Source: Thermoplasmatota archaeon
GTDB taxonomy: Archaea; Thermoplasmatota; Penumbrarchaeia; Penumbrarchaeales; Penumbrarchaeaceae
Direction: 5' to 3'
DNA length: 64,000 nucleotides
Assembly (NCBI GenBank): GCA_029762535.1
Contig: JARVGK010000012.1
Location: forward strand, 1 to 64,000
Numbering within the stretch: position 1 is the first letter of the stretch; every line of letters begins with the position of its first letter. Position numbers and translations under genes: made by a program. Shown piece after piece: positions 22,495 to 24,784 of this stretch. The notes beneath the pieces were generated by a model, which saw only the letters and a program-made list of their open reading frames with translations, ran no database searches and was not told where the DNA came from.

Positions 22495-22880
22495 GCATGT
22501 GGGTCTATTCGATAGCGTTCAGGAAGGATGCGGATCCTGGAAATGCCCCTTTCATGATGGTAAGGTCAAAAAAACGGGGTGCATGGGAGATGCCGGGCGG
22601 GCGGGTCGAGGTCGGTGAGGGTCCCCTGGAAGCCGCTGTAAGGGAGTTCCTAGAGGAGACGGGATTGAGGCTCGAAACAGGGGAGAATATGTGCATCGAG
22701 TATGAAGGTGGACGCGTTTTTTGTGGGACCTTTTCGGAGGGAACCCCCTCTCCCCGATGCGATGATGTGTTCGAGGCCAGGGAGTTCAGCGAACTTCCAG
22801 AAGACCTCGCATTTCCCTTCGTGGAATACGCCCCGATGATCGAGGTATGCAGGACCATGTTTAGAAATACCGTCACATGA
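22491..22880 (+). CDS. NUDIX hydrolase
   Basis: Nudix box GGRVEVGEGPLEAAVREFLEETG; ATG 22491 overlaps the nitroreductase stop. Confidence 0.9.
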   Translation: MSMWVYSIAFRKDADPGNAPFMMVRSKKRGAWEMPGGRVEVGEGPLEAAVREFLEETGLRLETGENMCIEYEGGRVFCGTFSEGTPSPRCDDVFEAREFSELPEDLAFPFVEYAPMIEVCRTMFRNTVT

Positions 22881-23907
22881 CCATAGGAACGTCCCATCTA
22901 CCCGGGTCGCCTTCAGGCTGCGGACGGGCCTGTCTCTCCTTTACCGCGTTTGAAAGTGTGAACTTCTCCTGATCGATCCCGGTGGCGATCCCGAATATGT
23001 CGACCTGGCCGGATGGCTCATCGCATCTGAGCGACGTGATGAAGACCGTCCTGCTCCTGTCCCCCAGTTTGCTGAATATCTCGTCCAGTAACCCCTTCAT
23101 GGACGAATCCGGAGCTCCCTTGGGCACCGTCATCTGCAGGAGCAGCCCCTTGCTCGCCCTCACGTCGGCCTTCATCATTATCCGCGATAGGAAGGACGTT
23201 GCGGCGGCCGAGGCGTCGCCGAGATCGTAATCCCCGACGAGAACTGTCCCCTCTCTCCCCTCTTTGAACAAAGTCCTGAGATCGGAGATGGTGATCCCTC
23301 TTTCCGGATGGCCGTACAGGGCCTGGGCAAGGGAGGTGACGACCCCGGATATCAGTATGTCCAGAGCTTGCAGGCTCCTGTGTATAGGGGCATTGCCGTA
23401 TATCTCGAGGAACCTGTCCTGGTCCACGGTGACCATGTTGAAGCCCCTGCGCAGCATGTTGTTCCGGGTGTGGTTGGCGACGGTCCTCGGAAGCGACTCC
23501 AGAACGGCCGACGGTATCGTGCATATATTGATCACGAAGGATCCGGTTGACTCCGCCAAAGATGAGATCACGGGCATCGCTCCCGAACCTGTACCCTTTC
23601 CTAGGGTTCCTATGACTACTGTCAGGTTGTAGTCCTTCATGTATGGTTCTATATCCCTCTTCGCATCCTCGGCGGCCCTCTCCCCCAGCTCGGGGAATCC
23701 GTTCGCTCCCTTTCCTCCGAACAGTCTGTTGCCTATTAGCACCTTGTACCTCGACGAGGCCCTGGAGAGCGAAGACCTGTCCGTCGTAATGAACATGGTG
23801 TCCGCTGTGTCGGATGCGGAATCGTGGACGTGGCGGAGTATCCTGGCGGTGCCCCTTCCCACGCCCACGACGAGTATGCGCCTGCTGGCCGATATCAGTT
23901 GGAACAC
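22873..23907 (-). CDS. Divergent FtsZ/tubulin-superfamily protein
   Basis: VVGVGRG, ITTD, KVLIG, GKGANG.PELGERAA, TLGKGTGSG (cf. GGGTG[T/S]G), IATGI; GTG start. Confidence 0.82.
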   Translation of the reverse strand: MFQLISASRRILVVGVGRGTARILRHVHDSASDTADTMFITTDRSSLSRASSRYKVLIGNRLFGGKGANGFPELGERAAEDAKRDIEPYMKDYNLTVVIGTLGKGTGSGAMPVISSLAESTGSFVINICTIPSAVLESLPRTVANHTRNNMLRRGFNMVTVDQDRFLEIYGNAPIHRSLQALDILISGVVTSLAQALYGHPERGITISDLRTLFKEGREGTVLVGDYDLGDASAAATSFLSRIMMKADVRASKGLLLQMTVPKGAPDSSMKGLLDEIFSKLGDRSRTVFITSLRCDEPSGQVDIFGIATGIDQEKFTLSNAVKERQARPQPEGDPGRWDVPMVM

Positions 23908-23911
23908 CGTC

Positions 23912-24166
23912 CTACTTCAACGAGTAGACCAGGGGTTCCATACCCGAATATCTCTGCTCCAGAACGTGCAGGGCCTGAGTGTACATCGCTGTGGCCCTGA
24001 TGTACTCCGGAGTGTTCATGGTGTTCTTGCAGTACATGTCCATCTGCTCCAGATAGAGCAGGTCGCTCGTCATCCTCTCGCTCAGTTCATTTTCATTTTC
24101 TGGCATATGTCCCATCCCCTTCATATTCCACTGCACGGAAATTTCCACGAAAGGCCGTTCTTCCAC
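23912..24166 (-). CDS. Small hypothetical protein between the RHH gene and the FtsZ-like gene
   Basis: Fills the gap co-directionally, 4 nt before the ftsZ-like start; true start may be the internal MPENENE. Confidence 0.55.
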   Translation of the reverse strand: MEERPFVEISVQWNMKGMGHMPENENELSERMTSDLLYLEQMDMYCKNTMNTPEYIRATAMYTQALHVLEQRYSGMEPLVYSLK

Positions 24167-24178
24167 TCCTTATCTGGC

Positions 24179-24565
24179 CTACCTCTGGTTCAAAGCCGCC
24201 GTCTGCAAGTCCATCGCGTCCGCCTCCGACGCCACCCTCTCGAGCTCCAGTTCGTTCTGTCTCCTGCGGATGTACTCCGATATGAGCGCATCCAGTCCAG
24301 GTTCGACCGCCTTTTCCAGGAGCTCCGGGATCGAGGAGGCGATCCCCTTTTCGTGGACCAGCTTCGCGGCCCTTCTCTTCACATCGCGTGGGATAGTTAT
24401 GGTGACAGTCGAGGCTGCGGATCCCGTCCCCATCTGACCGAGAAGCTCCAGCGCTTTTTGTATTACATCGGTTTTCGAAAGCTCGAGCTCCGATGAAAGC
24501 TTCTCGAGGATCCCGAGATGTTCCCCCGAGATCCTGGCAGATACCGTTACCACCTTCTCCGACAC
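24179..24565 (-). CDS. Tandem ribbon-helix-helix (CopG-like) DNA-binding protein with helical tail
   Basis: From GTG 24565: VVTVSARISGEHLGILEKL...SKTDVIQKALE and TVTITIPRDVKRRAAKLVHEKG..SIPELLEKAV, two beta-alpha-alpha patterns. Confidence 0.72.
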   Translation of the reverse strand: MSEKVVTVSARISGEHLGILEKLSSELELSKTDVIQKALELLGQMGTGSAASTVTITIPRDVKRRAAKLVHEKGIASSIPELLEKAVEPGLDALISEYIRRRQNELELERVASEADAMDLQTAALNQR

Positions 24566-24623
24566 CGTATTTATTCCCCTTGAACCCCCGTAATACGAGA
24601 GTATTACATGGAATAGCATAGGG

Positions 24624-24640
24624 GGTATATATTTTTTTTT
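24624..24640 (-). promoter_or_regulatory. BRE/TATA-like promoter of the RHH-ftsZ-like operon
   Basis: Minus strand reads AAAAAAAAATATATACC about 60 nt upstream of the GTG. Confidence 0.5.
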
Positions 24641-24784
24641 ACGGAGGTATCGGCCCGGGCAAGGATGGAAGGGTGGATGTTTTGACATGTGCAGGTAACG
24701 TATATATACGCTGATGGACGCTTTTTGGAGCGATCCCCAACGGGGACGGACCCTTGAAGGGGATATGTGGTTGGAGCATCCGAA

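What the first reader, a model, noticed from the sequence alone, without database searches (positions are those of the whole stretch)
22873..24640. Tandem-RHH + small protein + degenerate FtsZ operon
Seen: the FtsZ fold is recognisable but nearly every nucleotide loop deviates. T1 is GVGRGT (cf. GxGGxG), NTD is TTD, the signature is GKGTGSG (cf. GGGTG[T/S]G), PF..E..R is PSAVLESLPR, and the T7 catalytic loop NxDxxD reads GITISD. A hydrophobic C-terminal peptide (WDVPMVM) is retained. Established: T7 acidic residues drive GTP hydrolysis, and in haloarchaea the single-RHH regulator CdrS is encoded before ftsZ2. Here the regulator has two RHH units plus a helical tail, with an extra small gene in between. 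Inference: a GTPase-impaired FtsZ paralog acting as a modulator or cap, or a new cytoskeletal or segregation module reminiscent of TubZ/TubR.
Basis: partly seen in the sequence, partly recalled or inferred. Interest (0 to 1): 0.72.

Follow-up and report, generated by a model that had tools for sequence, protein, structure and literature searches.

The report
Remodelled FtsZ paralog operon, one archaeal family
An uncultured Thermoplasmatota archaeon keeps, under strong selection, a three-gene operon (double ribbon-helix-helix regulator, orphan 64-residue helical protein, FtsZ paralog whose GTP-binding loops are all rewritten but fixed); it is a fast-evolved, family-specific offshoot of the archaeal regulator-plus-FtsZ2 cell-division module, not a decaying gene and not a plasmid-type segregation system.

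Summary

- **Family-restricted:** the FtsZ-like protein and the small protein occur only in the window's own GTDB family (20-21 of 23 sampled genomes plus this one). They were not found in about 378 other Thermoplasmatota genomes.
- **Not decaying:** dN/dS is 0.04-0.07, tighter than the neighbouring genes. The altered nucleotide loops are the most invariant columns, so the site is remodelled rather than degenerate. One T7 aspartate (EcD212 position) is invariant.
- **Origin:** sister families of the same class carry a homologous tandem-RHH gene next to an FtsZ with canonical motifs and the same RWDI-type tail. One of them has the same operator. The window's operon is therefore a fast-evolved ortholog (stem branch 5.5-6.8 substitutions/site) that gained an orphan small gene. 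These genomes lack classical CdrS-FtsZ2.
- **Regulator:** a two-heptamer operator (GTAWTAC-N4-GTAWTAC) lies over the predicted transcription start in 16 of 16 loci. This fits an autoregulator, not a centromere.

The TubZ/TubR reading is not supported. GTPase impairment and a modulator role remain inferences. This scan has already noted tandem-RHH plus divergent or truncated FtsZ2 in other Thermoplasmata genomes.

The parts
24625..24634 (-). TATA-like box (AAATATATAC) of the operon promoter
   Evidence: Read from the sequence. A TATA-like box lies 22-27 nt upstream of the operator in the 11 related loci where the scan found one; the four loci L005, L007, L010 and L015 have TTTATATAA or TTTAAATAA boxes, seen.
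24590..24607 (-). Bipartite operator GTAATAC-TCTC-GTATTAC: two near-palindromic heptamers 11 bp apart, over the predicted transcription start
   Evidence: It is the only match in the 2.96-Mb genome at up to 1 mismatch, although the reversed-pattern control also gave one site. An equivalent pair of heptamers is in the promoter of 15 of 15 related loci, with 0 hits in the other 147 kb; the motif was defined after seeing the data. The same site type is upstream of the same-class operon L035.
24179..24565 (-). Tandem (single-chain double) ribbon-helix-helix protein with a long C-terminal helix, 128 aa, GTG start
   Evidence: Alignment A3 of 16 orthologs. hhalign to class-level homologs A4 gives probability 97% and E 7e-11 over both units. 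Those homologs pass Pfam RHH_1 and RHH_8. The AF2 model has pLDDT 76 with helices 14-26, 31-44, 60-73 and 79-126. The best local fold matches are CopG, Arc and MazE, with no significant E-value. dN/dS is 0.04-0.25.
23912..24106 (-). Orphan 64-aa acidic helical-hairpin protein (conserved NTxNTPEY loop, six conserved Tyr)
   Evidence: Alignment A2 has 25 invariant columns. The AF2 model has pLDDT 82 with helices 3-28 and 34-52. It has no Pfam or NCBIfam match and no fold match. It is found only in the own GTDB family, always directly upstream of the FtsZ-like gene. It has 40 clusters in 5.8 billion proteins, all hypothetical proteins of Thermoplasmatota. dN/dS is 0-0.17.
22873..23907 (-). FtsZ-fold paralog, 344 aa, with remodelled nucleotide loops and a C-terminal RWDVPMVM peptide; its GTG start lies 4 nt after the small gene's stop
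   Evidence: dN/dS is 0.036-0.072. It forms a clade with 100% SH-aLRT support on a stem of 5.5-6.8 substitutions per site.

Best explanation
**What it is.** A chromosomal, vertically inherited, autoregulated operon. It is the fast-evolved version, specific to one GTDB family of Thermoplasmatota (the ex4484_6-type lineage), of a wider 'tandem-RHH regulator + FtsZ2-like protein' unit. That unit is itself a relative of the archaeal cdrS-ftsZ2 cell-division module.

**Shown.**
- The three genes are conserved together and under strong purifying selection.
- The regulator is homologous to tandem-RHH proteins that sit next to canonical-motif FtsZ genes in sister families.
- Those FtsZs share the RWDI-type C-terminal peptide.
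- A conserved two-heptamer site lies between the TATA box and the start codon.
- The altered nucleotide-loop residues are fixed across the family.

**Inferred.**
1. Each tandem-RHH chain acts as a built-in pseudo-dimer on one GTAWTAC heptamer. Two chains side by side, possibly joined through the long C-terminal helix, cover the transcription start and repress the operon. This would set the dose of the other two proteins, as CdrL does for cdrS-ftsZ2.
2. The FtsZ-like protein still folds as FtsZ and still uses its pocket and T7 loop, but with changed chemistry:
   - T4 is GKGTGSG with an invariant Lys.
   - T7 has lost the Asn and the first Asp but keeps the second Asp.
   - Hydrolysis in its filaments or co-filaments is therefore likely slow. 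It would work as a stabilising or modulating division or cytoskeletal subunit rather than a standard treadmilling FtsZ.
3. The RWD[IV]PM[IV] tail is a derived form of the FtsZ C-terminal docking peptide and recruits a partner. The candidates are SepF (single copy in this genome) or one of the two operon proteins.
4. The orphan hairpin arose together with the burst of FtsZ change and is its dedicated partner or modulator.
For: **Conserved operon.**
- The three-gene order is kept in 15 of 15 related loci, with convergent Nudix and nitroreductase genes downstream.

**Restricted distribution, in about 400 sampled genomes of the phylum.**
- FtsZ-like protein: 20 of 23 other genomes of the own family (plus this one) score 480-604 bits. 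The best score elsewhere is 159 bits.
- Small protein: 21 of 23 in the own family, 0 of 377 elsewhere.
- The representative library shows the same gap for the FtsZ-like protein, 564 against 193 bits.

**Purifying selection.**
- Unsaturated pairs give dN/dS of 0.036-0.072 (FtsZ-like), 0-0.17 (small) and 0.04-0.25 (RHH).
- The flanking genes give 0.17-0.26 (Nudix) and 0.04-0.15 (nitroreductase).

**Remodelled pocket.**
- 49 of the 72 invariant columns lie in the N-terminal nucleotide domain and concentrate in the T3, T4, T5, T6 and T7 loops.

**Class-level relatives.**
- L033, L034 and L036 have a tandem RHH next to an FtsZ with canonical motifs that ends RWDIQSIM, KWDIPLVG or RWDIQLIR.
- They are the best BLASTP hits end to end.
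- The RHH proteins are homologous (hhalign 97%) and pass Pfam RHH_1 and RHH_8.
- L035 carries the same operator type.

**Tree.**
- The family sits outside the starred FtsZ1 clade.
- The AU test does not reject a clade of the family with the RWD-tail group (p 0.46).

**Operator.**
-.

**Genome content.**
- The own genome has two FtsZ1-type genes, 71% identical to each other, one SepF and no other FtsZ2.

**Knowledge from papers.**
- CdrL binds only the cdrS-ftsZ2 promoter (PMC7439475).
- The archaeal FtsZ C-terminal domain centres on a GID motif that binds SepF (PMC8178401).

**From my own knowledge.**
- E. coli FtsZ mutants at N207, D209 and D212 lose most GTPase activity.
Against: - No biochemical data exist; nucleotide binding, hydrolysis and polymerisation are all inferred from sequence.
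- The phylogenetic position is not resolved. AU tests also fail to reject a clade with FtsZ1 (p 0.13) and only marginally reject one with CdrS-linked FtsZ2 (p 0.043). The 5.5-6.8 substitutions/site stem invites long-branch artefacts, and the 'careful' tree search did not finish.
- Orthology with the class-level operons rests on the regulator, the tail and one shared operator. There are no shared flanks.
- The tail has lost the GID core of the SepF-binding motif, so SepF binding is uncertain.
- The class-level small ORFs (45-47 aa) show no detectable similarity to the 64-aa protein, so its origin is unknown.
- The operator motif was defined after seeing the sequences.
- The AF2 model of the regulator did not form the expected β-ribbon (pTM 0.37).
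Confidence: 0.62

Rival explanations
1. It is simply this lineage's FtsZ2. The protein does the standard FtsZ2 job in the division ring (constriction with FtsZ1 and SepF), and the sequence changes are lineage drift with compensation, with no new mechanism. The small protein is an unrelated accessory.
For: The family's genomes have no other FtsZ2-type gene. The tree places the family in the non-FtsZ1 assemblage. An RHH gene lies upstream, as for cdrS-ftsZ2 (PMC7439475). The core aligns to FtsZ without indels. The second T7 Asp, the guanine-contact Asp and the ribose-contact Glu are retained.
Against: Sister-class genomes hold both a CdrS-FtsZ2 pair and the tandem-RHH-FtsZ unit (G146: L037 and L033; G186: L032 and L036), so the unit is a paralog of classical FtsZ2. 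The sister family of the same order has only two FtsZ1-type genes (94% complete genome), so an FtsZ2 function is not obligatory there. Simultaneous fixed changes in T1, T2, T4, T5, T6 and T7, plus a co-arising orphan partner and a 5.5-6.8 substitutions/site stem, are more than drift.
Confidence: 0.25
2. It is a TubZ/TubR-like DNA segregation module. The RHH protein binds a centromere, and the FtsZ-like filament, through its C-terminal tail, pushes or pulls DNA.
For: The layout is a DNA-binding adaptor gene plus a tubulin-family gene with a conserved C-terminal peptide. From general knowledge, RHH adaptors (ParR, ParG) serve in other partition systems.
Against: Only FtsZ chains, and no TubZ, appear among the 49 solved relatives. 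The locus is chromosomal with conserved housekeeping flanks in all relatives. The best plasmid and phage matches are ordinary FtsZ at 29% identity or less. The DNA site is two heptamers at the transcription start, unique in the genome, not an array. Related operons carry canonical FtsZ.
Confidence: 0.06
3. It is a decaying duplicate: a redundant FtsZ copy under relaxed selection on its way to loss.
For: It deviates at nearly every canonical motif and scores far below the ftsZ equivalog threshold. Pfam does not detect an FtsZ_C domain.
Against: dN/dS is 0.036-0.072, tighter than the flanking genes. Reading frames are intact in 20 or more genomes of seven genera. The deviating residues are invariant across members that are 45-50% identical.
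Confidence: 0.02

Closest known systems
cdrS-ftsZ2 operon (with cdrL) of Halobacteria and other Euryarchaeota (Darnell et al. 2020, PMC7439475; Liao et al. 2021, PMC8406309)
   Same: One or more ribbon-helix-helix regulator genes sit directly upstream of, and co-oriented with, a non-FtsZ1 FtsZ paralog. Like CdrL, the regulator here appears to have a single dedicated site at its own operon's promoter. The three-gene layout is long RHH, small protein, FtsZ.
   Different: The regulator is one chain with two RHH units and a helical tail. It is neither the ~60-80-aa single-RHH CdrS nor CdrL, which is RHH plus a double zinc ribbon; this protein has no Cys. The middle gene is an acidic helical hairpin with no RHH features. 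The FtsZ has remodelled GTP loops and an RWDI tail. Classical CdrS-FtsZ2 pairs coexist with the tandem-RHH unit in sister genomes, so this is a paralogous unit.
Canonical archaeal FtsZ1 (M. jannaschii FtsZ, PDB 1FSZ/1W5A)
   Same: Same fold and length, with a gap-free alignment over about 307 residues. The T3 core G-x-G-A-x-G, T4 G-x-G-T-G-S-G, T5 Glu and Arg, H7 Asp and the last T7 Asp are retained.
   Different: About 25% identity. T1 GGxG is replaced by G[RSK]G[TSA], NTD by [TS][TS]D, the T4 second Gly by an invariant Lys, PF by PS, the T6 Asn by Gln, and T7 NxDxxD by [GSC]x[TS]xSD. The tail RFGIDFIR becomes RWD[IV]PM[IV]x.
Tandem-RHH + divergent or truncated FtsZ2 operons of other Thermoplasmata
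   Same: A double-RHH regulator of about 113-127 aa sits next to an FtsZ-like gene, with GTMWTAC-type sites upstream.
   Different: Those FtsZs are either near-canonical or lack the C-terminal half. None has this family's motif set, the RWDI tail together with the orphan small gene, or the 480-604-bit profile scores.
TubZ-TubR-tubC (type III plasmid and phage partition)
   Same: An adaptor-plus-tubulin-family gene pair, with a C-terminal tail as a likely docking element.
   Different: Not a TubZ by sequence, not on a mobile element, no centromere array, and the adaptor is RHH rather than winged-helix TubR.
Single-chain tandem RHH proteins such as F-plasmid TraY (recalled from knowledge, not tested)
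   Same: Two RHH units in one polypeptide form an intramolecular pseudo-dimer.
   Different: No detectable sequence relation was tested. The role here is promoter-proximal regulation of a cytoskeletal operon.

Membership tests
FtsZ (tubulin/FtsZ superfamily; TIGR00065 equivalog) | Tubulin/FtsZ GTPase domain (PF00091) above the gathering score | tested here: met
   66.5 bits against a cut-off of 33.
FtsZ (tubulin/FtsZ superfamily; TIGR00065 equivalog) | Score above the ftsZ equivalog cut-off (295 bits) | tested here: not met
   128.9 bits. The genome's two canonical copies score 423 bits.
FtsZ (tubulin/FtsZ superfamily; TIGR00065 equivalog) | Tubulin signature GGGTG[ST]G in T4 | tested here: not met
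   GKGT[GA]SG, with the Lys invariant in 14 of 14 members.
FtsZ (tubulin/FtsZ superfamily; TIGR00065 equivalog) | T7 synergy loop NxDxxD | tested here: not met
   [GSC][LI][TS]xSD; only the last Asp is retained and it is invariant.
FtsZ (tubulin/FtsZ superfamily; TIGR00065 equivalog) | FtsZ_C domain (PF12327) | tested here: inconclusive
   Pfam does not detect it (precomputed domains). The sequence nevertheless aligns through the C-terminal domain of M. jannaschii FtsZ to residue 343.
FtsZ (tubulin/FtsZ superfamily; TIGR00065 equivalog) | GTP binding, GTPase activity and polymerisation | not testable with these tools
   Needs biochemistry.
cdrS-ftsZ2 module | RHH gene directly upstream of, and co-oriented with, the FtsZ gene | tested here: met
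   although a small non-RHH gene lies in between.
cdrS-ftsZ2 module | The regulator is a small single-RHH protein (CdrS) | tested here: not met
   128 aa with two RHH units plus a helical tail.
cdrS-ftsZ2 module | The FtsZ belongs to the FtsZ2 clade | tested here: inconclusive
   It falls in the non-FtsZ1 assemblage. The AU test marginally rejects a clade with the CdrS-linked FtsZ2 pair (p 0.043) and does not reject FtsZ1 (p 0.13).
CdrL | RHH plus a C-terminal double zinc ribbon; restricted to Halobacteria (PMC7439475) | tested here: not met
   The 128-aa protein has no cysteine (read from the translation), and the organism is a Thermoplasmatota archaeon.
TubZRC partition system | TubZ-family protein | tested here: not met
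   All 49 solved-structure relatives are FtsZ; no TubZ appears at E up to 1e-3.
TubZRC partition system | Centromere made of several adaptor-binding repeats | tested here: not met
   There are two heptamers only, at the promoter. The site is unique in the genome.
TubZRC partition system | Carried on a plasmid or phage | tested here: not met
   The chromosomal flanks are conserved, and there is no close match in the plasmid or phage collections.
Ribbon-helix-helix (CopG/Arc/MetJ) superfamily, tandem form | RHH profile match for each unit | tested here: inconclusive
   The window protein itself has no Pfam RHH hit. It is homologous over both units (hhalign 97%, E 7e-11) to proteins that pass RHH_1 for unit 1 and RHH_8 for unit 2.
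Ribbon-helix-helix (CopG/Arc/MetJ) superfamily, tandem form | β-α-α fold with a paired β-ribbon | tested here: inconclusive
   The AF2 model gives two helix pairs but no β-strands (pTM 0.37). The local best fold match is CopG, with TM 0.84 and rmsd 0.8 Å over 39 columns, but no significant E-value.

The most novel reading that the evidence does not exclude
In this one archaeal family, the FtsZ-like protein and its orphan 64-aa hairpin form a new two-component cytoskeletal switch.
- The rewritten but fixed pocket (invariant Lys in T4, Gln for the T6 Asn, single-Asp T7) binds nucleotide with different specificity or turnover.
- The hairpin, not intrinsic GTPase, controls assembly.
- The pair has taken over, or replaced, the FtsZ2 role in a lineage that lost classical FtsZ2.
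Probability: 0.2. Interest if true: 0.75.

Novelty: new variant of a known kind. Interest (0 to 1): 0.55.

Why it matters
**Open question in the field.** Archaeal FtsZ-based division is understood from a few model haloarchaea and methanogens, with two FtsZs, SepF and CdrS. This locus shows that Thermoplasmatota carry a third, separately regulated FtsZ unit with a single-chain double-RHH regulator.

**What this family adds.** In one family that unit went through a burst of change, rewriting every nucleotide-contact loop and then freezing the new state, at the same time as an orphan partner gene appeared.

**Why it is useful.** It is a natural experiment on how far the FtsZ active site can be retuned while staying functional, comparable to the non-catalytic T7 of β-tubulin.

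**Testable handles.**
- An 18-bp operator.
- An 8-residue tail peptide.
- A 64-aa candidate modulator.

**If it proves ordinary.** If the protein turns out to be a slow or non-hydrolysing subunit, it would be a natural counterpart of the T7 mutants used experimentally to poison FtsZ rings.

Tried and rejected
- **Synteny look-up.** Synteny was obtained from the search for related loci and the genome search instead.
- **Complex prediction.** Complex prediction on the FtsZ-like protein (A1) plus the small protein (A2) gave 'no answer' (score 0.07 against a mark of 0.32). It counts neither for nor against binding.
- **Small protein.**
  - Foldseek against PDB gave only generic helical hairpins, all with E above 4.
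  - The ESM Atlas gave no usable hit.
  - hhalign against the 45-47-aa ORFs at the same position in class-level operons gave no similarity.
- **Regulator.** Foldseek gave no E below 1e-3, only local CopG, Arc and MazE matches.
- **Phylogeny.**
  - The 'careful' IQ-TREE search did not finish in two 300-s runs on one CPU, so quick trees and AU tests were used.
  - The sister group of the family is unresolved and changed between runs.
- **Wider synteny.** None was found between the window and class-level loci beyond the operon.
- **Top non-family profile hits.** P0099-P0102 score high only because they hold two complete FtsZ units.
- **Literature.** Searches found no description of this family or of tandem-RHH-FtsZ operons in the held library. 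An 'FtsZ3' hit was only a reference-number artefact.
Full report
**1. What is there**

The minus strand of window 22873-24688 holds three co-oriented ORFs.

*The FtsZ-fold gene (22873-23907, 344 aa).*
- It matches the Pfam Tubulin/FtsZ GTPase domain at 66.5 bits (cut-off 33).
- It reaches only 128.9 bits on the NCBIfam ftsZ equivalog model (cut-off 295).
- Against solved structures it matches only FtsZ chains. It aligns almost without gaps to M. jannaschii FtsZ1, residues 8-314 against 37-343.
  - T1 GVGRGT, TTD for NTD, GKGTGSG for GGGTGTG, and PS…E…R for PF…E…R;
  - DQDRF for PNDKL;
  - GITISD aligned to NVDFAD;
  - a C-terminal RWDVPMVM.

*Three refinements.*
- The second T7 aspartate (E. 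coli D212 position) is retained.
- The regulator most likely starts at GTG 24565 (128 aa). All orthologs start there, and the promoter lies inside the longer ORF.
- The small protein most likely starts at ATG 24106 (64 aa), behind a GGGG ribosome-binding motif. This matches the mostly 62-64-aa gene calls of its relatives.

**2. It is a real, constrained, lineage-restricted operon**

*A tight family.*
- A search of 5.8 billion proteins found 14 members at 45-94% identity, then a drop to about 25% identity with ordinary FtsZ.
- A profile search of 1.8 billion cluster representatives shows the same gap, 564 against 193 bits. The 193-bit hits are double-FtsZ fusion proteins that score high only because they hold two units.

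*Restricted to one GTDB family.*
- In about 400 sampled genomes of the phylum, full-strength matches (480-604 bits) occur in 20 of 23 other genomes of the window's own family, in seven genera.
- The three without a match are 62-76% complete.
- The best score elsewhere is 159 bits.
- The related contigs are all Thermoplasmatota MAGs. Names given to the small protein include 'Thermoplasmatales archaeon ex4484_6'.

*Conserved gene order.* All 15 related loci with upstream DNA keep the order regulator, small gene, FtsZ-like gene. Convergent Nudix and nitroreductase genes lie downstream, which indicates a vertically inherited chromosomal locus.

*Strong purifying selection.* Nei-Gojobori dN/dS on unsaturated pairs:

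| Gene | dN/dS |
|---|---|
| FtsZ-like | 0.036-0.072 |
| Small protein | 0-0.17 |
| Regulator | 0.04-0.25 |
| Flanking Nudix | 0.17-0.26 |
| Flanking nitroreductase | 0.04-0.15 |

The 'decaying duplicate' reading is refuted.

**3. The pocket is remodelled, not degenerate**

- Of 72 invariant columns in the family alignment, 49 lie in the N-terminal nucleotide domain. They cluster in the following elements:
  - T3 (G-x-G-A-x-G) and the helix after it;
  - T4 (G-K-G-T-x-S-G), T5 (P-S…E…R) and T6 (D-Q-[DE]-R-F);
  - T7 (S-D-L).
- The guanine-contact Asp of H7 and the ribose-contact Glu are kept.
- A decayed site would vary between members that are only 45-50% identical. Here a new consensus is frozen.
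- From knowledge of E. coli FtsZ T7 mutants (N207, D209, D212), losing the Asn and the first Asp should lower hydrolysis strongly. That is an inference, not a result.

**4. Where it came from**

*FtsZ content of this genome.*
- It has two canonical FtsZ genes. They are 71% identical to each other, and both end in RFGIDFIR.
- One sits in the secE-nusG / rpoA''-L30e context. Both are FtsZ1-type.
- No classical FtsZ2 is present.

*FtsZ content of sister families of the same class.*
- Two FtsZ1-type genes.
- In some genomes, a classical single-RHH (CdrS-like) + FtsZ2 pair (L037, L032).
- A third unit: a 112-140-aa tandem-RHH protein, sometimes a 45-47-aa ORF, and an FtsZ with fully canonical motifs.
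- In three of the four third-unit loci the FtsZ ends RWDIQSIM, KWDIPLVG or RWDIQLIR (L033, L034, L036); the fourth is L035.

*Evidence tying the window's operon to that third unit.*
- Those third-unit FtsZs are the window protein's best end-to-end BLASTP hits.
- Their regulators pass Pfam RHH_1 (unit 1) and RHH_8 (unit 2). They are homologous to the window's regulator over both units (hhalign 97%, E 7e-11).
- L035 also carries the same operator type.

*Trees and AU tests.*
- The family is a 100%-supported clade on a stem of 5.5-6.8 substitutions/site, outside the starred FtsZ1 clade. Its sister group is unresolved.
- AU test results:

| Constraint | p | Outcome |
|---|---|---|
| Family + RWD-tail group | 0.46 | not rejected |
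| Family + FtsZ1 | 0.13 | not rejected |
| Family + CdrS-linked FtsZ2 | 0.043 | marginally rejected |

- The tree alone therefore cannot place the family. The regulator homology, the tail and the operator carry the orthology argument.

*The wider pattern.*
- Other Thermoplasmatota genomes hold RHH proteins of about 113-127 aa next to full-length or half-length FtsZ-like genes. Three of the short-FtsZ loci (L043, L055, L061) have GTMWTAC-type sites upstream.
- Earlier notes of this scan report the same theme in other genomes.
- I found no description of it in the held literature.

**5. The regulator and its site**

- Between a TATA-like box (24625-24634) and the GTG start lies GTAATAC-TCTC-GTATTAC (24590-24607). 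These are two near-palindromic heptamers 11 bp apart, starting 22 nt after the TATA box, which is where an archaeal transcription start is expected.
- An equivalent heptamer pair lies in the promoter of all 15 related loci and nowhere else in their remaining 147 kb. The motif was defined after seeing the data.
- In the 2.96-Mb genome it is the only match at up to 1 mismatch. The reversed-pattern control also gave one site, so uniqueness alone is not significant.
- One pseudo-dimeric chain per palindromic heptamer, two chains per helical turn, is the natural reading.
- It resembles CdrL, whose only reproducible ChIP site is the cdrS-ftsZ2 promoter (PMC7439475). This protein lacks CdrL's zinc ribbons.
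- There is no repeat array, and no close relative lies on plasmids or phages. The TubZ/TubR analogy is therefore not supported.

**6. The small protein**

- It is a confident helical hairpin (pLDDT 82) and it is acidic.
- It has 25 invariant columns of about 62, including an NTxNTPEY loop.
- It has no family, fold or Atlas relative.
- It exists only in the family that has the remodelled FtsZ, always directly upstream of it.
- It shows no similarity to the small ORFs of the class-level operons.
- Its appearance coincides with the burst of FtsZ change. This suggests, but does not show, that it is a dedicated partner.

**7. The tail**

- Archaeal FtsZ C-terminal peptides centre on a nearly invariant GID motif that binds SepF (PMC8178401).
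- The FtsZ1 copies here end RFGIDFIR. The FtsZ-like protein ends RWD[IV]PM[IV]x. The pattern of charge, aromatic and hydrophobic positions is the same, but the G and D are lost.
- The genome has one SepF.
- The tail is invariant (R337, W338, P341, M342), so it is functional. Its partner is open.

**8. Verdict**

It is an FtsZ paralog with a changed catalytic loop and a tandem-RHH regulator, related to cdrS-ftsZ2.
- It is partly wrong on two points. The locus is not TubZ/TubR-like, and the site is remodelled and strongly constrained rather than degenerate.
- It is a new variant of a known kind: a family-specific, neofunctionalised branch of a Thermoplasmatota-wide, apparently undescribed tandem-RHH-FtsZ unit.

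*Limits of this analysis.*
- No biochemistry.
- No 3-D model of the FtsZ-like protein.
- The 'careful' tree search did not finish.
- The single complex prediction gave no verdict.

Noticed in passing
L001:973-2160 (G000 contig C33) and L002:1003-2199 (G000 contig C28): The genome has two FtsZ1-type paralogs, 71% identical, both ending RFGIDFIR. The same pair exists in the sister family and across the class (L023-L031), so the FtsZ1 duplication is old in this class while classical FtsZ2 is patchy.
   Followed up: partly
L043:1306-2019, L055:1450-2187, L061:1240-2073, L048:1096-1944 (other Thermoplasmatota genomes): Short (237-282 aa) FtsZ-like genes are each preceded by an RHH protein of 99-122 aa. 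Three of the four (L043, L055, L061) have GTMWTAC-type repeats upstream. Earlier notes of this scan describe such half-FtsZ operons.
   Followed up: partly
L036:2115-2258 and L034:1069-1206: ORFs of 45-47 aa lie between the tandem-RHH gene and the canonical-motif FtsZ in two class-level operons. They share an IIELWVN motif with each other but have no detectable similarity to the window's 64-aa protein. L033 and L035 have no such ORF.
   Followed up: partly
P0099, P0100, P0101, P0102 (metagenome proteins, 731-840 aa): These are single polypeptides with two complete FtsZ units (Tubulin + FtsZ_C twice). They are either natural tandem FtsZ fusions or read-through gene calls.
   Followed up: partly
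window 24699-24710: A perfect palindrome CGTATATATACG lies in the divergent intergenic region between the operon and the 897-aa surface-protein gene that starts at 24767. It may be the TATA element of that divergent promoter.
   Followed up: no
window 23639-24496 (+): A 285-aa open frame runs antisense across the small gene and the regulator gene. It has no support from homologs and is most likely a by-product of GC-rich coding sequence on the other strand.
   Followed up: no
window 22497-22880 (+): The convergent Nudix gene (homologs align from residue ~93 of the 219-aa ORF) ends 8 nt inside the 3' end of the FtsZ-like gene. This convergent Nudix + nitroreductase pair is conserved downstream of the operon in 13 related loci.
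   Followed up: partly
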